Source: a virus
Reading direction: 5' to 3' (one strand)
DNA length: 24,179 nt
UHGV virus genome: UHGV-0071260
Positions 1,654 to 17,388 of this stretch are shown here, in pieces (the first letter of the stretch is position 1; every line of letters starts with the position of its first letter). A model generated the notes under the pieces. That model had not been told where the DNA came from. It searched no databases and saw only the letters and a program-made list of their open reading frames with translations. The translations under genes were made by a program, and so were the position numbers.

Positions 1654-1746
1654 ATGGACGACACATTGTTTTATATGTGCTGTTGCTGGGGTTTTATTGC
1701 CTTATGTCTGTTTATCAGGTGGTTTATTGAATACCATATGAGGTGA
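1654..1746 (+). CDS. hypothetical hydrophobic Cys-rich mini-protein (30 aa)
   Basis: Read from sequence: MDDTLFYMCCCWGFIALCLFIRWFIEYHMR; fills the gap between flanking genes; below the 60-aa track cut-off. Confidence 0.25.
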   Translation: MDDTLFYMCCCWGFIALCLFIRWFIEYHMR

Positions 1747-12770: not shown

Positions 12771-12911
12771 ATGGATGACGAATACGTTAACAATTTTATT
12801 GTTATGTTTCTTAGTGAAAATTGGCGCATGTTTGAACATTATTGTTTTGAGCGCGGGGAAAATGCTGAAGAAATATATCAATATTTAGGCGGGGAGAAAG
12901 AGGATGATTGA
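12771..12911 (+). CDS. hypothetical small protein (46 aa)
   Basis: ATG directly after upstream stop; read from sequence, below the track cut-off. Confidence 0.3.
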   Translation: MDDEYVNNFIVMFLSENWRMFEHYCFERGENAEEIYQYLGGEKEDD

Positions 12912-13098
12912 ATGTCTTATCATTGCTGTGTTTCTCCTTTATATTGCTGGCGCTATCCTGATGTCTTGTTTTATCAAATCTAATGATCTCGATCGTGGTG
13001 GTCTTGAGATTCCTTTCTGGCCTGTAGCGGTGTTTATTGCTCTCGTAGATGCCGCGCGCGCGCAGATCAAAAGGGTTATTAAGGAGCGCAAGAAATGA
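12904..13098 (+). CDS. small membrane protein
   Basis: GGGGAGAAAGAGG RBS; hydrophobic N-terminal helix IIAVFLLYIAGAILMSCFI. Confidence 0.45.
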   Translation: MIECLIIAVFLLYIAGAILMSCFIKSNDLDRGGLEIPFWPVAVFIALVDAARAQIKRVIKERKK

Positions 13099-13339: not shown

Positions 13340-13362
13340 GCCCGGCCCGCGCCGGGTTTTTG
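13340..13362 (+). terminator. intrinsic terminator upstream of the holin gene (candidate tR'-like element)
   Basis: Stem CCCGGC / GCCGGG with loop CCGC followed by TTTTT; in a 104-bp AT-rich intergenic region. Confidence 0.55.
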
Positions 13363-13381: not shown

Positions 13382-13582
13382 ATGTTCGACAAAATACGGG
13401 AGGCGTGCGCGTATGCAGTAGGGGCCGTAACGGCCTTTTTTGGTGCGATAACCATTAATGATGTTGCTGTCTTTGTGGGTATCTTATCAACCGTAGGCAC
13501 ATTTGCCGTTAACTATTACTTCAAATCACAGGAGAACAAGCGAGCGCAAGAGGAACACGACGCGCGAATGGGGAATAAGTAA
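13382..13582 (+). CDS. class II holin (pinholin-like)
   Basis: 66 aa with two hydrophobic helices and a charged C-terminus (YFKSQENKRAQEEHDAR); directly upstream of a SAR endolysin. Confidence 0.7.
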   Translation: MFDKIREACAYAVGAVTAFFGAITINDVAVFVGILSTVGTFAVNYYFKSQENKRAQEEHDARMGNK

Positions 13583-13583
13583 C

Positions 13584-14075
13584 ATGATTAACCAATCGCT
13601 GAAAAACCGATTAACTAAGGCGGCGGCTGGTGGAGTATTAGCCATTGCATCCGTTTTGCTTGTATGGGTTGAGGGTACGGCTTACGAGCCTTATTACGAT
13701 ACCGGAGGCGTGCTAACTGTATGCAATGGCATAACTGGACCTGATGTTGTCCCAGGTAAGAGATACACACCGGATGAATGCGAGAGACTTTTACAAAAAC
13801 ACTTAGCCGTTTATAAAAAGGCGGTAGATCGTTATGTAAAAGTTGACATGAATGACTACCAACGCGCCGCGCTAATTAGCTTTTCATACAATATCGGGGT
13901 TGACGCTTTCAAAAAATCAACCTTGTTAAAAAAAATAAACAAAGGCGACTTTAAAGGGGCGTGTAAGGAGTTAGATCGCTGGGTATATGATAACGGGCGA
14001 TACATACAGGGCTTAAAAAATCGTCGCGATATTGAGCGCACCGTTTGTGAGTGGGGCGTAAATGATGGAAAGTGA
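13584..14075 (+). CDS. SAR endolysin (phage lysozyme, T4-lysozyme fold)
   Basis: N-terminal signal-anchor-release helix AAAGGVLAIASVLLVWV; catalytic E-x8-D-x5-T spacing (EGTAYEPYYDTGGVLT); close resemblance to P21 R; track ORF 13503 starts upstream of the likely ATG. Confidence 0.9.
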   Translation: MINQSLKNRLTKAAAGGVLAIASVLLVWVEGTAYEPYYDTGGVLTVCNGITGPDVVPGKRYTPDECERLLQKHLAVYKKAVDRYVKVDMNDYQRAALISFSYNIGVDAFKKSTLLKKINKGDFKGACKELDRWVYDNGRYIQGLKNRRDIERTVCEWGVNDGK

Positions 14076-14586
14076 TAATGAACTAAAACGAAAACTACAC
14101 TACGACCCGGCAACAGGTATTTTTACCTATAAAGTTAGCCCACACGGGAGGATCAAGGCGGGTAGTGTAGCCGGGTATAAACATAAAAGCGGGTATATAT
14201 ACATAGGAAGATATAAAGCGCATCGCCTCGCGTGGTTTTTCCATTATGGGGTGTGGCCCGAAAAGGACATTGATCATATTAATGGGATAAAAACAGACAA
14301 CAGGATAGTAAACCTTAGAGAAACAGATGATGCGCATAATTGCAGAAACAAGAAACATATTACCACTCATACATTGTCTGCATTCAGGGGCGTTAGCTAC
14401 CACAAAACGGATCGTGGTAATCCTAAGTGGCGGGTAAGAATTACTGACAATAACGGTAAACGTATATCTATTGGTTTATTTGACTCACTAGACGAAGCAA
14501 TCGCCGCTCGCATTTTGGCAGAAAACTTTTTCTATGGTGAATATGCACCTTCGATGGGTTGCGAGGGGGAAACGTGGACAAGATAA
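14062..14586 (+). CDS. HNH homing endonuclease with AP2-type DNA-binding domain
   Basis: HNH motif DHINGIKTDNRIVNLRETDDAHN and AP2-like segment FRGVSYHK...WRVRI; overlaps endolysin 3' end and Rz 5' end. Confidence 0.85.
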   Translation: MMESDNELKRKLHYDPATGIFTYKVSPHGRIKAGSVAGYKHKSGYIYIGRYKAHRLAWFFHYGVWPEKDIDHINGIKTDNRIVNLRETDDAHNCRNKKHITTHTLSAFRGVSYHKTDRGNPKWRVRITDNNGKRISIGLFDSLDEAIAARILAENFFYGEYAPSMGCEGETWTR

Positions 14587-15044
14587 AGGCGTTAATCATC
14601 GCCGTTGTTGTTTGCATTATTGCCGGACTGACCGCCGTAACGTGTTATTACCAGAGTGAGGCGGCAAGGTTACAGGAAGAAGTCACGGTGACGAAAGGCG
14701 CACTGAAAACGGCAAGTAACACTATTCAGCAGATGAAGGAGCGAAACGCCGAACTGTCAAAACTTGATAAGAGGTATCACGATGAGATTAAAGCTATCAG
14801 ATCTGACATTGCCGATCTGCGCACTGGCATTGATAACGGTACTATCCGGTTGCGCGTCAACGCAACACCTGTGCGAGTGTCCGACCCCACCGGATCCGCC
14901 AGCGCCATTGATGGAGCCGCCTGTAGACTCACTCCCGACGCTGAATCGGCTTATCTATCCCTCAGAGAACAACTAAAAGAGAAAGATGCGAAGATAACCG
15001 CACTTCAGAGCTACATCAAAACGCAGTGCTTACGCAAAGAATAA
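14574..15044 (+). CDS. Rz: i-spanin Rz
   Basis: N-terminal TM helix then coiled-coil-like region; embedded +1-frame lipoprotein ORF; probable GTG start at 14574 after GAGGGGGA (the track lists TTG 14559). Confidence 0.75.
   Translation: MDKIKALIIAVVVCIIAGLTAVTCYYQSEAARLQEEVTVTKGALKTASNTIQQMKERNAELSKLDKRYHDEIKAIRSDIADLRTGIDNGTIRLRVNATPVRVSDPTGSASAIDGAACRLTPDAESAYLSLREQLKEKDAKITALQSYIKTQCLRKE
14782..14976 (+). CDS. Rz1: o-spanin Rz1 (lipoprotein embedded within Rz)
   Basis: Lipobox LSGC after signal peptide MRLKLSDLTLPICALALITV; proline-rich mature part; AGAGGT RBS before ATG 14782. Confidence 0.7.
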   Translation: MRLKLSDLTLPICALALITVLSGCASTQHLCECPTPPDPPAPLMEPPVDSLPTLNRLIYPSENN

Positions 15045-15323: not shown

Positions 15324-15851
15324 ATGGCTAAGGCTAAAGGCATTAAATTGCCTCAATTTAAGATCCCACTCTTTGAGCATACAACAGTTTTCTTTTGCCC
15401 GACCCGCGAGATGTTCTATGAATTTTGCGAAAAGGCAGGAATTCCGATTGAACCTGATTTCGAGTTGGCTGGAGGATTAACGCTTACTTGCACTGGCGAG
15501 AATGGTGGTAACTTCTACGTGATCGCAGTATTCAACAATGAGTTGGGAACGCTAACGCATGAAGTGGCACATGCCACATTTCATTGTTTAAGTGATGTTG
15601 GCGTAATGGCTACAACAGATCCAAGCCATCCGGCAAATGAAACTTACGCTTATATGATTGGACGTATGTTTGATGCTTTTTATCCTGTACTACTTGAAAG
15701 CATCGACGCACAAGCCGCAGCTATCAGGGCGCAACAAGCGCTAGAAGAAGCTGAAAGAAAAAAAGAAGCCAAAAGAAAAGCAAAAACAAAAGAGCCGCCG
15801 AAAGTGGGAAAATACATTATTGCGGGGCAAAGCCGTTATGCAATGGGATGA
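15324..15851 (+). CDS. hypothetical protein with HExxH motif (possible zinc-metallopeptidase-like)
   Basis: THEVAH motif; Lys/Glu-rich C-terminal tail; AGGAGA RBS. Confidence 0.45.
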   Translation: MAKAKGIKLPQFKIPLFEHTTVFFCPTREMFYEFCEKAGIPIEPDFELAGGLTLTCTGENGGNFYVIAVFNNELGTLTHEVAHATFHCLSDVGVMATTDPSHPANETYAYMIGRMFDAFYPVLLESIDAQAAAIRAQQALEEAERKKEAKRKAKTKEPPKVGKYIIAGQSRYAMG

Positions 15852-16323
15852 TTATTTCAGTTATAACCCAGAAACAGAGGATCTAATGTGGAAGGTATAC
15901 AGATCTCCCAACGCAAAACCAGGCGACATTATCAGGGGGACTAAATCTAGAAACAAGCACTTGAGAGTAAATTTAAACAGAAAATATTATCAAGTTCATT
16001 GCATTATATGGGAAATGCACAACGGCCCGATACCGGAAGGAATGGAGGTAGACCATATTGACCATGACAAATGGAATAATAGGTTGCCAAACTTAAGACT
16101 CGTTGACGATGAGGGTAATGCGCATAATATGAGCTTGTTTAAAACTAACACAAGCGGCGTTTCCGGTGTCGGATGGCATAGCCAGCGTAAAAAATGGCGA
16201 GCAACAATATGGCATAAATGCAAGCAAATATCTCTTGGGTTGTTTGATAATTTTGATGATGCTGTAATGGCGCGGCGTGAAGCTGAAATTAAATATGGCT
16301 ATCACCCAAATCATGGTCATTGA
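15838..16323 (+). CDS. HNH homing endonuclease with AP2-type domain (second copy)
   Basis: HNH motif DHIDHDKWNNRLPNLRLVDDEGNAHN and AP2-like segment SGVSGVGWH...WRATI; the track start at 15820 is TTG, ATG is at 15838. Confidence 0.85.
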   Translation: MQWDDYFSYNPETEDLMWKVYRSPNAKPGDIIRGTKSRNKHLRVNLNRKYYQVHCIIWEMHNGPIPEGMEVDHIDHDKWNNRLPNLRLVDDEGNAHNMSLFKTNTSGVSGVGWHSQRKKWRATIWHKCKQISLGLFDNFDDAVMARREAEIKYGYHPNHGH

Positions 16324-16340
16324 TTTAAACGAGGCTGATT

Positions 16341-16415
16341 ATGATTGACCCGCTAATCATCCTTTCTGCCTGCGTCGCTGTATGGCTGGCGATCATGATA
16401 TTCATTGAAAGCTGA
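16341..16415 (+). CDS. mini-ORF 1 of 7, single hydrophobic helix (24 aa)
   Basis: MIDPLIILSACVAVWLAIMIFIES; GAGG RBS; read from sequence. Confidence 0.35.
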   Translation: MIDPLIILSACVAVWLAIMIFIES

Positions 16416-16425
16416 AGGTATCAAC

Positions 16426-16500
16426 ATGAATATTTACGATCTCATCTGGTGGTCATTGGTCGCCGTCATTATCTATTTCTGGTGGAAGAATGTTGTATAG
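16426..16500 (+). CDS. mini-ORF 2 of 7, single hydrophobic helix (24 aa)
   Basis: MNIYDLIWWSLVAVIIYFWWKNVV; AAGG RBS. Confidence 0.35.
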   Translation: MNIYDLIWWSLVAVIIYFWWKNVV

Positions 16501-16508
16501 GTGAAAGC

Positions 16509-16598
16509 ATGAACGCATGCGAAATGCTATTGCTGGTGGCTGTAGTTGTAGTTATTGCCGTGGACGTATACCGGGAGATTAAAAATGAAATGGCTTGA
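16509..16598 (+). CDS. mini-ORF 3 of 7, single hydrophobic helix (29 aa)
   Basis: MNACEMLLLVAVVVVIAVDVYREIKNEMA; AGGTGA RBS. Confidence 0.35.
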   Translation: MNACEMLLLVAVVVVIAVDVYREIKNEMA

Positions 16599-16650
16599 TT
16601 TCTTTTTCCTGATTGTTGCGATTGTTATTACCATGACTGCGCTAACTTAA
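16585..16650 (+). CDS. mini-ORF 4 of 7, single hydrophobic helix (21 aa)
   Basis: MKWLDFFFLIVAIVITMTALT; overlaps mini-ORF 3 by 14 nt. Confidence 0.3.
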   Translation: MKWLDFFFLIVAIVITMTALT

Positions 16651-16661
16651 TAGGTGAGCGA

Positions 16662-16736
16662 ATGAACGCTATTGATATTATGTTGATCGTGTGTACCGTT
16701 GCGTTATTTATTGTCGGAGTGATTATCAATGTCTGA
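16662..16736 (+). CDS. mini-ORF 5 of 7, single hydrophobic helix (24 aa)
   Basis: MNAIDIMLIVCTVALFIVGVIINV; AGGTGAG RBS. Confidence 0.35.
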   Translation: MNAIDIMLIVCTVALFIVGVIINV

Positions 16737-16797
16737 CAGTGATTTCTTAATCATGGCTACATGCACGTTGTTAGTAGTTATCGTTTTCTTCGCATAA
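16729..16797 (+). CDS. mini-ORF 6 of 7, single hydrophobic helix (22 aa)
   Basis: MSDSDFLIMATCTLLVVIVFFA; ATGTCTGA overlap with mini-ORF 5. Confidence 0.3.
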   Translation: MSDSDFLIMATCTLLVVIVFFA

Positions 16798-16807
16798 AGG
16801 TTAAACA

Positions 16808-16891
16808 ATGAAGGAGCTATTCGATTGGTTGGAAGTATTAACATACTGCGCAAGTTTTGTGGCTTGCGTATATATCATCAATAAATATTGA
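16808..16891 (+). CDS. mini-ORF 7 of 7, single hydrophobic helix (27 aa)
   Basis: MKELFDWLEVLTYCASFVACVYIINKY; AAGG RBS; stop overlaps the terS leader. Confidence 0.35.
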   Translation: MKELFDWLEVLTYCASFVACVYIINKY

Positions 16892-16902
16892 GAGGTGAGA
16901 TT

Positions 16903-17388
16903 ATGGCCCGCACTAAAAAGGCAAATGCTGACGATAAAAAGCCAGCCGCCAAAAAGGTGGGCCGTCCGCATGGCTATACCGAAGAAAAGGCATTAGAGAT
17001 CTGTGAGCTGGTGGCGGACGGTCAAAGCGTTAACAAAATTTCGAAAATGCCAGGTATGCCAACACGTTCGACAATCCTTAAGTGGTTCCGTGATGTGCCG
17101 GAATTTTCGGACATGTACATGCGCGCGAAGGAGATCGGCTTTGAGGTATTGGCTGATGAGATCATCGATATAGCTGATGCAGCGGAGAACACTGATAAAG
17201 ATCAATTGCGCCGCCATCAACTGATGATTGAAACGCGTAAATGGTTACTGGCAAAACTGCAACCGCGTAAATACGGTGAACGCGTCACACAGGAGATTGT
17301 CGGCAATAGGGAGGAGGCGCCAGTACAGGTGGAAGTAACGAAAGAAGAGATCGCCCGCATCGTCCAGGAAGTAGAAGATGAGGTGTGA
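16903..17388 (+). CDS. terS: terminase small subunit
   Basis: Signature GRPHGYTEEKALEICELVADGQSVNKISKMPGMPTRSTILKWF...EFSDMYMRAKEIGFEVLADEIIDIAD typical of HTH-type small terminases; GAGAGGTGAG RBS before ATG 16903. Confidence 0.8.
   Translation: MARTKKANADDKKPAAKKVGRPHGYTEEKALEICELVADGQSVNKISKMPGMPTRSTILKWFRDVPEFSDMYMRAKEIGFEVLADEIIDIADAAENTDKDQLRRHQLMIETRKWLLAKLQPRKYGERVTQEIVGNREEAPVQVEVTKEEIARIVQEVEDEV

What the first reader, a model, noticed from the sequence alone, without database searches (positions are those of the whole stretch)
16341..16891. Tandem array of seven single-helix mini-proteins wedged between an HNH endonuclease and terS
Seven consecutive ORFs of 21-29 codons fill 550 bp that the supplied track leaves empty. 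Each has its own purine-rich Shine-Dalgarno sequence 5-9 nt upstream. Each encodes a short polar head (M-x-x-x-D/E) followed by 17-20 hydrophobic residues, that is, one transmembrane helix. Two pairs overlap out of frame (3/4 by 14 nt, 5/6 by the ATGTCTGA junction) and the last stop overlaps the terS leader, which implies translational coupling. Seven SD-ATG-helix-stop units in a row are unlikely by chance. They resemble type I toxin or holin-modulator-like membrane peptides but match no family I recognise; functions such as superinfection exclusion or membrane depolarisation are speculation.
Basis: seen in the sequence. Interest (0 to 1): 0.85.

Follow-up and report, generated by a model that had tools for sequence, protein, structure and literature searches.

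The report
Hidden array of tiny membrane-protein genes
A 550-base stretch that gene annotation leaves blank in a common group of gut E. coli viruses holds seven real, tightly packed genes for 21-29-residue proteins that are little more than one membrane-spanning helix each. Related viruses carry 3 to 13 of them in ever-changing combinations, and their job is unknown.

Summary
Seven + strand ORFs of 24, 24, 29, 21, 24, 22 and 27 codons fill 16341-16891. Dinucleotide shuffles give a mean of 0.09 such units (maximum 3 in 5000).

The window belongs to the mEpimmI (mEp021-like) temperate coliphages. I examined 69 relatives: 7 phages, 14 E. coli prophages and 48 IMG/VR contigs. All carry the array upstream of terS, with 3-13 units from about 20 peptide families in a fixed order and 45 different architectures.

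The reading frames are under purifying selection. Pooled pN/pS is 0.27, against 0.92 and 1.45 in the shifted frames and 0.20 for terS. Only about 3 of 645 copies are disrupted.

The peptides are uniformly hydrophobic, with acidic N-tails and often basic C-tails, which predicts an N-out/C-in single-pass topology. They match nothing in Pfam, PHROGs, NCBIfam, PADLOC or Rfam. They are absent from more distant prophages with related TerL.

They lie in the same-strand gene string downstream of a two-TMD holin (pinholin-like), SAR-endolysin and Rz cassette. My best guess, at about 0.35, is that they act in the inner membrane to tune membrane energisation and lysis timing. I rate this a new variant of a known kind, small phage membrane proteins.

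The parts
16341..16415 (+). Mini-gene 1 (family F04), 24 aa, MIDPLIILSACVAVWLAIMIFIES; core member of the array
   Evidence: ORF with GAGG SD. Intact in 66 of 69 relatives, pN/pS 0.28.
16426..16500 (+). Mini-gene 2 (F05), 24 aa, MNIYDLIWWSLVAVIIYFWWKNVV; accessory member with Trp/Tyr belts at both ends of the helix
   Evidence: Present in 47 of 69 relatives, pN/pS 0.35. Paralogue of F03 and F07.
16509..16598 (+). Mini-gene 3 (F07), 29 aa, MNACEMLLLVAVVVVIAVDVYREIKNEMA; core member with a basic C-tail
   Evidence: Present in 67 of 69 relatives, pN/pS 0.16. The exact sequence is in nr only as DAZ29734.1, hypothetical protein.
16585..16650 (+). Mini-gene 4 (F09), 21 aa, MKWLDFFFLIVAIVITMTALT; overlaps gene 3 by 14 nt; core member
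   Evidence: Present in 65 of 69 relatives, pN/pS 0.21. Paralogue of F08, F12 and F11.
16662..16736 (+). Mini-gene 5 (F10), 24 aa, MNAIDIMLIVCTVALFIVGVIINV
   Evidence: Present in 51 of 69 relatives, pN/pS 0.39.
16729..16797 (+). Mini-gene 6 (F11), 22 aa, MSDSDFLIMATCTLLVVIVFFA; its start overlaps the stop of gene 5 (ATGTCTGA)
   Evidence: The -8 overlap is seen at 53 junctions across relatives. pN/pS 0.29. Length variants are in-frame.
16808..16891 (+). Mini-gene 7 (F14), 27 aa, MKELFDWLEVLTYCASFVACVYIINKY; core member; its stop abuts the terS Shine-Dalgarno
   Evidence: Present in at least 66 of 69 relatives. It ends 10-11 nt before the terS ATG in 59 of 69. Invariant residues M1 K2 L4 Y13 A15 C20 Y22 I23.
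16903..17388 (+). Terminase small subunit (Sf6-type), immediately downstream and probably translationally coupled
   Evidence: PF20901 Sf6_terminase, E = 2.5e-37.
15820..16323 (+). HNH_3 + AP2 homing-type endonuclease; an optional insertion at the junction between the upstream gene and the array, not part of the array
   Evidence: Pfam. Present at this site only in the window and mEp013. The junction TTTAAACGAGGCTGATT-ATG after its stop is the same one that follows the upstream gene in other genomes.
15324..15851 (+). 175-aa protein with a HEVAH motif (phrog_1365, unknown function); the usual upstream neighbour of the array
   Evidence: In 66 of 69 genomes the first mini-ORF starts 2 nt after the stop of the upstream gene of at least 120 aa. 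Where annotation was inspected, that gene is this one's homologue.
13382..15044 (+). Lysis cassette upstream on the same strand: a 66-aa two-TMD holin (13382-13582), a SAR endolysin (13584-14075), an inserted HNH-AP2 gene (14062-14586) and an Rz-like spanin (14559-15044)
   Evidence: The endolysin aligns with phage 21 R (3hde/3hdf) and RrrD (4zpu), including the N-terminal SAR segment, E about 1e-44.
13340..13357 (+). Strong intrinsic terminator just upstream of the holin; marks the start of the lysis-packaging gene string that contains the array
   Evidence: 7-bp stem with 6 GC pairs plus a T-run. No promoter or terminator enrichment between it and terS.

Best explanation
**Shown.** The 550 bp hold seven genuine protein-coding genes. 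They belong to a lineage-specific, polycistronic array found upstream of terS in every mEpimmI (mEp021-like) coliphage examined. The array has 3-13 units drawn from about 20 paralogous families in a fixed order. Units are packed with overlaps of 4, 8 or 14 nt or spacers of 2-17 nt, and each has its own SD. Each product is essentially one hydrophobic helix, with an acidic N-tail and a neutral or basic C-tail.

**Inferred from established rules.**
- Topology. The positive-inside rule predicts N-out/C-in. The short acidic N-tails resemble those of Pf3 coat protein, whose insertion depends on YidC and the proton-motive force.
- Insertion. At 20-30 aa the peptides leave the ribosome before the helix emerges, so insertion must be post-translational.
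- Transcription. The genes have no conserved promoter or terminator of their own. They sit in one same-strand string with the holin, SAR endolysin, Rz, terS and terL genes, so they are probably made late, together with the lysis and packaging proteins.

**Hypothesis (about 0.35).** The peptides accumulate in the inner membrane late in infection and act there by helix-helix contacts. The partners could be each other, the two-TMD holin (pinholin-like by architecture), or the membrane-embedded SAR segment of the endolysin. This would shift membrane energisation or SAR release and so set the time of lysis. Gain and loss of units by recombination at the conserved junctions would give a quick way to retune that timing.
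For: **Coding.**
- 7 units are observed against a mean of 0.09 in shuffles.
- The same ORFs are kept in 69 genomes.
- pN/pS is 0.27 in frame, 0.92 and 1.45 out of frame, and 0.20 for terS.
- Variable sites by codon position are 151/111/259, p = 2e-15.
- About 3 of 645 copies are disrupted, and indels are in-frame.
- 630 of 634 starts are ATG, and 575 of 634 have an SD.

**Coupling.** Junctions are -4 (110 cases), -8 (53) and -14 (12). A median of 91% of the interval is mini-ORF.

**Membrane character.** Mean Eisenberg hydrophobicity is 0.6-1.0 and hydrophobic moment is 0.01-0.22. N-tails are net negative in 197 of 238 distinct peptides (2 are positive). C-tails are net positive in 114 and net negative in 32.

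**Paralogy.** 19 of 190 family pairs reach p <= 0.01, where 1.9 are expected.

**Late and lysis context.**
- All neighbours are on the + strand, a strong terminator lies at 13340-13357 before the holin, and there are no conserved internal + strand promoters.
- The endolysin is of the phage-21 SAR type. It is preceded by a 66-aa two-TMD holin.
- SAR release is sensitive to the proton-motive force (established knowledge).

**Precedents for extra membrane proteins that tune lysis.**
- Mu releasin gp25 (PMC9239132).
- BSPM4 ORF52 (PMC11657625).
- P1 LydA-D (PMC9025707, abstract).
Against: - No expression or phenotype data exist.
- The canonical lysis set (holin, endolysin, spanin) is already complete.
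- The array is separated from the cassette by about 280 nt of non-coding DNA, a 175-aa gene and, in this window, an HNH gene.
- Thirteen different peptides and 45 architectures in 69 genomes look more like an arms-race or accessory locus than a timing device.
- The peptides do not resemble the Ala/Gly-rich holin TMDs, and most lack the charged C-terminal domain typical of holins.
- F14 is very conserved and usually abuts terS, which hints at a link to packaging rather than lysis.
- Late transcription is inferred from gene order only.
Confidence: 0.35

Rival explanations
1. A membrane-level conflict locus. Each mini-protein is a helix-sized binder that neutralises a particular membrane protein of the host or of a rival prophage. 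Targets could be transmembrane effectors of abortive-infection systems or exclusion proteins. Alternatively, the peptides themselves exclude competing phages. Rapid reshuffling of units would track the varying defence repertoires of E. coli strains.
For: - 45 architectures in 69 genomes and 3-13 units. A conserved core (F04, F07, F09, F14, F02) is accompanied by a fast-changing accessory set, yet each unit is under purifying selection.
- This is the pattern typical of accessory conflict loci.
- TM-only proteins can bind specific TM partners (BPV E5 and 'traptamers', bacterial MgrB/AcrZ/MgtS; own knowledge and the review PMC12648545 listed).
Against: - No conserved own promoter exists, so expression from the prophage is unlikely, and late expression is too late for most defences.
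- There is no PADLOC match.
- Superinfection exclusion in this phage group is already assigned to Lpp lipoproteins (PMC11893012).
- No co-variation with any defence system was tested.
Confidence: 0.22
2. Host-takeover modulators. The peptides bind and inhibit or redirect housekeeping inner-membrane machines late in infection, independently of lysis. Candidate targets are FtsH, YidC/SecYEG, transporters, respiratory complexes and divisome proteins.
For: - Size, topology and TM-only build match bacterial small membrane regulators (review PMC12648545 listed).
- ssRNA-phage single-gene lysis proteins of about 35-37 aa inhibit membrane enzymes (own knowledge).
Against: - No partner has been identified.
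- The high turnover of units is odd if the targets are conserved housekeeping proteins.
- There is no homology to any known regulator.
Confidence: 0.15
3. A packaging-linked role. The last unit (F14), and perhaps others, serve terS. They would either act purely as a translational relay delivering ribosomes to terS, or as a membrane tether for the terminase or procapsid.
For: - F14 is near-universal and ends 10-11 nt before the terS ATG in 59 of 69 genomes. Its stop abuts the terS SD.
- In the first 22 genomes its pN/pS was 0.01.
Against: - A relay needs no conserved amino-acid sequence or hydrophobic helix.
- Nine genomes insert a soluble 47-48-aa ORF between F14 and terS.
- Related TerL phages with other terS types have no array.
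- Tailed-phage packaging is not known to need a membrane anchor.
Confidence: 0.08
4. Type I toxin-antitoxin-like addiction modules. These would be toxic membrane peptides held in check by antisense RNAs.
For: - The peptides have the size and hydrophobicity of Ibs, ShoB, DinQ and TisB (family definition in PMC2887945; DinQ in PMC3567139; both listed).
- One weak antisense promoter-like site (16750->16722) is kept in 40 of 46 genomes.
Against: - The units have no promoters or 5' UTRs of their own and overlap one another.
- There is no Rfam antitoxin RNA.
- There is no Pfam or NCBIfam toxin family match.
- The one conserved antisense site lies in conserved codons and matches only 9 of 12 positions.
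- Promoter-like sites are not above chance (11 found, 12.7 expected).
Confidence: 0.03
5. Not genes. The region would be a T-rich non-coding stretch, a pac/cos site, an RNA element or a set of attenuator leaders that happens to contain hydrophobic ORFs.
For: - The + strand is T-rich (AT skew -0.12 to -0.17).
- Most annotation pipelines call nothing here.
- 6 of the 7 exact peptides are absent from a 15-billion-protein collection.
Against: - The selection signal is frame-specific.
- Only about 3 of 645 copies are disrupted.
- Shuffles give 0.09 units.
- The RNA fold z-score is +0.47, and there is no Rfam family at threshold.
- There is no terminator enrichment.
- Content varies from 3 to 13 units, which a cis site would not tolerate.
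- terS is the Sf6 headful type.
Confidence: 0.03

Closest known systems
Type I toxins of E. coli (Ibs, ShoB, DinQ, TisB, Ldr, Hok)
   Same: Peptides of 18-50 aa that are essentially one inner-membrane helix. They occur in multiple tandem paralogous copies in a genome (ibs, ldr) and were long missed by annotation. Family definition: PMC2887945. DinQ: PMC3567139.
   Different: Each type I locus has its own promoter, a structured 5' UTR and an antisense RNA. Here the units are packed into one polycistron with overlaps and no conserved promoters or antisense RNAs. There is no sequence-family match.
Holins, antiholins and accessory lysis membrane proteins (phage 21 pinholin, P1 LydA-D, Mu releasin gp25, BSPM4 ORF52)
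   Same: Small phage membrane proteins made late that set lysis timing by acting in the inner membrane. SAR-endolysin systems respond to membrane energisation. Several phages carry extra membrane proteins beyond the basic holin (PMC9025707, PMC9239132, PMC11657625).
   Different: Known examples are 60-220 aa with charged cytoplasmic domains and lie next to the endolysin gene. These peptides are 20-47 aa, mostly without soluble tails, and lie 2.3 kb downstream of the endolysin beyond Rz and another gene. A separate 66-aa holin is present. There are no holin family hits apart from a weak E = 0.04 for F13.
Arrays of small membrane-protein genes in actinobacteriophages (Arthrobacter clusters AM/AU, Rhodococcus Pepy6/Poco6)
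   Same: Runs of many small genes for putative membrane proteins of unknown function, noted as an unusual genome feature (PMC5513430, PMC5679793).
   Different: Those proteins average about 137 aa with 1-5 helices, are annotated genes, lie downstream of the tail genes, and occur in Gram-positive hosts. They are not TM-only peptides of 20-30 aa and are not described as translationally coupled.
Filamentous phage Ff genes VII and IX (own knowledge)
   Same: Adjacent genes for 33- and 32-aa hydrophobic proteins. They are translationally coupled with overlapping stop and start codons, and the products insert into the inner membrane without signal peptides.
   Different: Those proteins are virion cap proteins of a phage assembled at the membrane. 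mEpimmI phages are tailed siphoviruses with no membrane assembly step. There is no sequence similarity, and Ff has two units rather than 3-13.
Bacterial small membrane regulators (MgrB, AcrZ, MgtS, KdpF, CydX) and viral TM-only proteins (BPV E5)
   Same: Single-helix proteins of under 50 aa that act solely by helix-helix binding to a larger membrane protein (review PMC12648545; E5 from own knowledge).
   Different: Those are single genes with known partners. Here no partner is known and the genes form a variable array.
Staphylococcus aureus psm-alpha operon (own knowledge)
   Same: Four tandem ORFs of 20-22 codons, each with its own SD, overlooked by annotation.
   Different: PSMs are amphipathic, secreted surfactant peptides. 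These peptides have a very low hydrophobic moment and high hydrophobicity, which marks them as membrane-spanning.

Membership tests
Type I toxin-antitoxin | Small (<60 aa) hydrophobic peptide with one predicted TM helix | tested here: met
   21-29 aa, mean hydrophobicity 0.6-1.0, hydrophobic moment <= 0.22.
Type I toxin-antitoxin | Antisense or overlapping small RNA antitoxin with its own promoter | tested here: inconclusive
   No Rfam antitoxin was found. Antisense promoter-like sites are not conserved, except one weak 9/12 site at 16750->16722 that lies inside conserved codons. The count of promoter-like sites is at the chance level. No transcript data exist.
Type I toxin-antitoxin | Independent transcription unit with its own promoter and a regulatory 5' UTR | tested here: not met
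   Units overlap or lie 2-17 nt apart, and there are no conserved + strand promoters.
Type I toxin-antitoxin | Sequence membership of a known toxin family (Hok, Ldr, Ibs, TisB, ShoB and others) | tested here: not met
   No Pfam or NCBIfam hit at E <= 1 to any toxin family.
Type I toxin-antitoxin | Toxicity or depolarisation on over-expression | not testable with these tools
   Needs experiment.
Holin / antiholin | At least one TM domain | tested here: met
Holin / antiholin | Hydrophilic, highly charged C-terminal cytoplasmic domain | tested here: not met
   C-tails are 0-8 residues. Only F07 and (elsewhere) F13 have short basic tails.
Holin / antiholin | Gene adjacent to the endolysin gene in the lysis cassette | tested here: not met
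   A 66-aa two-TMD holin sits directly before the endolysin (13382-13582). The array starts 2.3 kb after the endolysin.
Holin / antiholin | Match to a holin family profile | tested here: not met
   None of the seven matches. F13 of relatives gives only E = 0.04 to phrog_920.
Holin / antiholin | Controls lysis timing or membrane permeabilisation | not testable with these tools
   Needs deletion and expression experiments.
Cis-acting packaging site (pac/cos) | Nucleotide sequence conserved irrespective of reading frame and present in every genome | tested here: not met
   Conservation is frame-specific. Content varies from 3 to 13 units, and one genome keeps only 318 bp. terS is the Sf6 headful type, PF20901.
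Structured RNA / attenuator leader peptides | Conserved secondary structure or terminator-antiterminator hairpins after the leader ORFs | tested here: not met
   The fold z-score is +0.47. No Rfam hit reaches threshold; the best is the S15 leader at 19.9 bits against a 39.5-bit gathering score. Terminator-like sites are at the chance level.
Lipoprotein (colicin-lysis or Rz1-like) | Basic n-region, hydrophobic h-region and a lipobox L-[AS]-[GA]-C | tested here: not met
   ORF1 contains LSAC, but its N-tail is acidic. Relatives have LSVC, LSLC or LFLC at this place.
Small single-pass membrane regulators (MgrB/AcrZ/MgtS type) | Specific binding to a larger membrane protein | not testable with these tools
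   Size and topology fit. No partner can be inferred from sequence.

The most novel reading that the evidence does not exclude
The array is a natural combinatorial library of minimal transmembrane binders. Each 20-30-residue helix has evolved to dock onto a different membrane protein. Targets could be host defence effectors, rival-phage exclusion proteins, or the phage's own holin and SAR endolysin. The phage would reshuffle units by recombination at the conserved SD/stop junctions to match the host strain it meets. That would be a new class of phage weapon, working entirely inside the lipid bilayer and invisible to current gene finders.
Probability: 0.15. Interest if true: 0.85.

Novelty: new variant of a known kind. 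Interest (0 to 1): 0.6.

Why it matters
mEpimmI phages are reported to be as prevalent as lambdoid phages in a collection of coliphages isolated from human faeces (PMC11893012). Every genome examined hides 3-13 genes that standard annotation misses. Six of the seven peptides here are absent as exact sequences from a collection of about 15 billion predicted proteins.

These genes are as constrained as the terminase small subunit, yet their combinations differ between almost any two phages. That pairing, strong selection on each unit and fast turnover of the set, is unusual for proteins that are nothing more than a membrane helix.

The system is experimentally easy. mEp021 grows on E. coli K-12 and has only five units, so it could show what TM-only micro-proteins do for a virus. 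It is also a warning that minimum-length cut-offs in gene finders systematically remove a class of phage genes.

Tried and rejected
**Family searches.** The seven peptides and several relatives gave nothing meaningful in PHROGs, Pfam, NCBIfam or PADLOC.

**RNA and DNA-element searches.**
- An Rfam scan at E <= 1 gave one sub-threshold chance hit.
- Tandem and direct-repeat searches found no DNA-level periodicity, so the paralogues are old.
- The RNA fold of the whole array is no more stable than shuffles.
- The promoter and terminator scan was at the chance level.
- A scan for conserved antisense or sense promoters across 69 arrays found one weak antisense site explained by codon conservation.

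**Homologue and locus searches.**
- A homologue search with the 47-aa member F13 found only close relatives, all unnamed.
- A locus search with an F14 alignment recovered the same phage group only.
- The next terS relatives share only about 40% identity. HK620 and Pseudomonas H66 showed no array.
- TerL relatives at 67-71% identity occur in prophages of several Enterobacterales genera. The four whose loci I fetched (Pectobacterium, Raoultella, Cronobacter, Hafnia) have other terS types and no array.

**Literature.**
- The mEpimmI paper does not mention the region.
- No paper in the library contains the peptide sequences.

**Ideas considered and dropped.**
- Lipoprotein signal (the LSAC in ORF1). 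The N-tail is acidic and the -1 position varies.
- ilv-type attenuator leaders. There are no hairpins.
- Co-translational membrane targeting of the late mRNA. The peptides are too short to emerge from the ribosome before release.
- RiPP precursor peptides served by the upstream HExxH protein. There is no leader/core organisation, and the peptides are uniformly hydrophobic.

**Not run.**
- Metagenome and GTDB-wide scans, because the added breadth would not bear on function.
- Structure prediction, because the window peptides are below the 30-aa limit and a lone helix is uninformative.
Full report
**1.

Reading 15900-17300 and listing all ORFs of at least 20 codons shows seven + strand ORFs at:
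- 16341-16415
- 16426-16500
- 16509-16598
- 16585-16650
- 16662-16736
- 16729-16797
- 16808-16891

They have 24, 24, 29, 21, 24, 22 and 27 codons. All start with ATG and have a purine-rich GAGG/AAGGT/AGGTGA/GGGAG/GGAG motif 4-9 nt upstream. ORFs 3/4 overlap by 14 nt and ORFs 5/6 by the 8-nt ATGTCTGA. The last stop abuts the GAGGTGAG Shine-Dalgarno of terS, whose ATG is at 16903.

I defined a unit as an SD tetramer, ATG, 18-35 codons with a 15-residue Kyte-Doolittle window of at least 1.7, and a stop. By that definition the region has 7 units. In 5000 dinucleotide-preserving shuffles the mean was 0.09 and the maximum 3. The other 23.6 kb of the window, on both strands, has only two such units.

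- D/E is exactly at position 5 in five of the seven.
- The uncharged cores are 13-19 residues rather than 17-20.
- The HNH gene is incidental (see section 2).

**2. Where the window comes from and what surrounds the array.**

Megablast of the region and of the whole window finds only the mEp021-like temperate coliphages. These are mEp021, mEp010, mEp013, mEp044, mEp515, mEp554 and MagusPhagus, at 87-89% identity over 51-82% of the window. This is the 'mEpimmI' group described in PMC11893012, a paper that does not mention this region.

All large ORFs in the window are on the + strand. The order upstream of the array is:
- a strong intrinsic terminator (13340-13357);
- a 66-aa two-TMD holin (13382-13582);
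- an endolysin that aligns over its whole length, including the Gly/Ala-rich N-terminal SAR segment, with the phage 21 SAR endolysin (3hde/3hdf) and RrrD (4zpu) at E about 1e-44;
- an inserted HNH_3+AP2 gene (14062-14586);
- an Rz-like spanin (14559-15044);
- about 280 nt of non-coding DNA;
- a 175-aa protein with a HEVAH motif (phrog_1365, unknown function);
- a second HNH_3+AP2 gene (15820-16323).

Downstream are an Sf6-type terS (PF20901), terL and the head genes.

Only this window and mEp013 have the second HNH gene. After its stop comes the same TTTAAACGAGGCTGATT-ATG junction that follows the 175-aa gene in other genomes. It is therefore a homing-type insertion, and 'wedged between HNH and terS' is an accident of this genome.

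**3. The ORFs are genes.**

I collected the interval upstream of terS from three sources:
- 7 phage records;
- 14 E. coli prophages, drawn from the 35 of 5426 complete genomes that carry it;
- 48 IMG/VR contigs found through terS.

All 69 usable genomes have the array. The evidence for coding is as follows.

*Array composition.*
- Each genome has 3-13 units, with a mode of 9.
- The units fall into about 20 peptide families that always appear in the same order.
- There are 45 different architectures. The window's own (F04-F05-F07-F09-F10-F11-F14) is unique in the sample.
- Core families are F04 (66 of 69), F07 (67), F09 (65), F14 (at least 66) and F02 (60).

*Selection.*
- Nei-Gojobori counts pooled over families give pS 0.315 and pN 0.084, a ratio of 0.27, in the proposed frame.
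- The same nucleotides read one or two bases out of frame give 0.92 and 1.45.
- terS from the same genomes gives 0.20.
- Variable sites fall 151/111/259 on codon positions 1/2/3, chi-square p = 2e-15.

*Integrity.*
- A nucleotide-level search for damaged copies found 9 candidates among about 645 occurrences.
- Six of these are intact ORFs with an in-frame length change.
- Only three are truly broken: one frameshift, one nonsense and one lost start.

*Translation signals and packing.*
- Of 634 units, 630 start with ATG and 575 have an SD tetramer.
- Junctions are -4 (ATGA, 110 cases), -8 (53), -14 (12), or mostly 2-17 nt.
- A median of 91% of the interval is mini-ORF.

**4. What the products look like.**

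Consensus peptides have a mean Eisenberg hydrophobicity of 0.6-1.0 and a hydrophobic moment of 0.01-0.22. That marks them as membrane-spanning rather than surface-amphipathic helices.

Among 238 distinct peptides:
- the first seven residues are net negative in 197 and net positive in 2;
- the last eight residues are net positive in 114 and net negative in 32.

By the positive-inside rule this predicts N-out/C-in. Short acidic N-tails are the kind translocated with the help of the proton-motive force and YidC, as in Pf3 coat protein (established knowledge). At 20-30 residues the chains are released before the helix leaves the ribosome, so insertion must be post-translational (inference).

Families are paralogous. 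N-terminally anchored comparison gives 19 of 190 family pairs at shuffle p <= 0.01, where 1.9 are expected. The clear groups are {F03, F05, F07}, {F08, F09, F12, F11}, {F06, F10, F02b} and {F01c, F02}. This shuffle null is generous, because all peptides share a polar-head, hydrophobic-tail layout, but the top pairs have 7-9 identities in 21 positions. No DNA-level repeat remains, so the duplications are old.

**5. What it is not.**

- *Not a known protein family.* There is no match in Pfam, PHROGs, NCBIfam or PADLOC.
- *Not a structured RNA.* No Rfam family reaches threshold, and the fold z-score is +0.47.
- *Not a set of separate transcription units.* Promoter-like and terminator-like sites are at the chance level. 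No + strand promoter is conserved. One weak antisense site (16750->16722, 9 of 12 positions) is conserved in 40 of 46 genomes, but it lies in conserved codons.
- *Not a pac/cos site.* The content of the interval varies from 318 bp to over 1.1 kb, and terS is the Sf6 headful type.

These points argue against type I toxin-antitoxin loci, attenuator leaders and a packaging site.

**6. Distribution.**

- F13 (47 aa) has only close, unnamed relatives among 5.8 billion clusters.
- F14 patterns recover the same IMG/VR contigs as terS.
- The next terS relatives are only about 40% identical: P22-like and Pseudomonas phages.
- HK620 and H66 have no array.
- TerL relatives at 67-71% identity occur in prophages of other Enterobacterales. 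The four loci I fetched (Pectobacterium, Raoultella, Cronobacter and Hafnia) have different terS genes and no array.

The array is therefore specific to the mEpimmI lineage.

Annotation largely misses it:
- The mEp021 record and PGAP leave the interval empty.
- PHANOTATE-based records call some units, sometimes fused or in another frame.
- Six of the seven window peptides are not present as exact sequences among about 15 billion predicted proteins. ORF3 exists only as a 'hypothetical protein' of a Caudoviricetes MAG.
- No paper in the searchable library contains the sequences.

**7. How it most likely works.**

*Shown:* these are real, co-oriented, tightly coupled genes for TM-only peptides.

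*Inferred:* they are expressed late on the transcript that also carries the lysis and packaging genes, they insert post-translationally in an N-out/C-in orientation, and they act inside the bilayer, because they have nothing outside it.

*Hypothesis (about 0.35):* they modulate membrane energisation or bind the holin or SAR helices, and so tune lysis time. Three considerations support this:
- This phage uses a SAR endolysin preceded by a two-TMD, pinholin-like holin. In such a system endolysin release depends directly on the state of the membrane.
- There are precedents for extra membrane proteins that tune lysis: Mu releasin (PMC9239132), BSPM4 ORF52 (PMC11657625) and P1 LydA-D (PMC9025707).
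- Adding or removing units would be a simple rheostat.

Against the hypothesis:
- The basic lysis set is already complete.
- The array is not adjacent to the endolysin gene.
- Forty-five architectures in 69 genomes look more like an arms-race locus.

The rivals are:
- a membrane-level conflict or host-range library (0.22);
- modulators of host housekeeping membrane machines (0.15);
- a terS-linked role for F14 (0.08);
- type I TA (0.03);
- not genes (0.03).

The remaining probability is for something not listed here.

**8. Comparison with what is known.**

Functionally the peptides look most like type I toxins or small membrane regulators, and by context like accessory lysis proteins. Formally they most resemble two known gene arrangements:
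- the translationally coupled Ff genes VII/IX;
- the overlooked tandem psm-alpha ORFs.

Runs of small membrane-protein genes of unknown function have been remarked on in Arthrobacter and Rhodococcus phages (PMC5513430, PMC5679793). Those proteins are several times larger and already annotated.

Membership of the type I toxin and holin families fails on tested defining features (see the membership table). I therefore class the finding as a new variant of a known kind, namely small phage membrane proteins. It is neither a member of a named family nor categorically new.

**9. Verdict.**

- The coding and membrane interpretation is supported.
- The function is open.
- Interest is 0.6: a solid, previously undescribed and experimentally tractable gene array, with an unusual combination of strong constraint and rapid reshuffling.

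Noticed in passing
window 14062-14586 and 15820-16323: The window has two separate HNH_3 + AP2 homing-type endonuclease genes. One is inserted between the SAR endolysin and Rz. The other lies between the 175-aa gene and the array. Among the relatives whose upstream gene I examined, only mEp013 has one at the second site.
   Followed up: partly
window 1654-1746 (+): A solitary 30-codon SD-ATG-hydrophobic ORF (MDDTLFYMCCCWGFIALCLFIRWFIEYHMR) sits right after ORF 1343-1651. It is built in the same style as the array units, with an acidic head, a helix and a basic tail. The region is conserved in all seven phage genome records. It may be another unannotated membrane mini-gene.
   Followed up: partly
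window 12904-13098 (+): A 64-aa predicted two-helix membrane protein lies upstream of the terminator and holin. Its N-terminus (MIECLIIAVFLLY...) resembles the array peptides in style. It could be a distant paralogue or another lysis-related membrane protein.
   Followed up: no
window 15324-15851 (+): The usual upstream neighbour of the array has a HEVAH zinc-metallopeptidase-like motif but no Pfam or PDB sequence match (phrog_1365, unknown function). In more distant prophages (L120, L121) the gene just before terS is PF18894 PhageMetallopep, possibly an analogue.
   Followed up: partly
L018 2066-2212; L019 2295-2438 (and 7 other genomes): In 9 of 69 genomes the gap between the last mini-gene (F14) and terS is 163-166 nt instead of 10-11 nt. 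In the two I translated, the gap holds an extra 47-48-aa acidic, soluble ORF (MVSNEELKMADEIRKALDAAENNETVYFSEREVEKMMDEFKLKFEKDN).
   Followed up: partly
window 16750->16722 (- strand): A weak sigma-70-like site (TTAAGA-17-GATAAT, 9 of 12 positions) points antisense across mini-gene 5. It is conserved in 40 of 46 genomes with F11. It lies in conserved codons, so the conservation may be a by-product.
   Followed up: partly
L001 (MagusPhagus) 1566-1769 and 1747-1839; L011 1290-1679 (-): Deposited annotations of the array are inconsistent. PHANOTATE calls fuse units or use other frames. PGAP in one O157:H7 genome calls a 129-aa antisense 'hypothetical protein' across the first units, which is probably spurious.
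   Followed up: no
L054 (IMGVR_UViG_3300045988_084845), about 2180-2500: This is the smallest array seen. Only three units (F01, F02, F14) lie in a 318-bp interval, which shows that most of the array is dispensable for phage persistence.
   Followed up: no
window 13340-13357 (+): A strong GC-rich intrinsic terminator (GCCCGGC...GCCGGGT + T-run) lies 25 nt before the holin start. It recalls lambda tR' and implies that lysis, array and packaging genes depend on antitermination or on a promoter just downstream.
   Followed up: no
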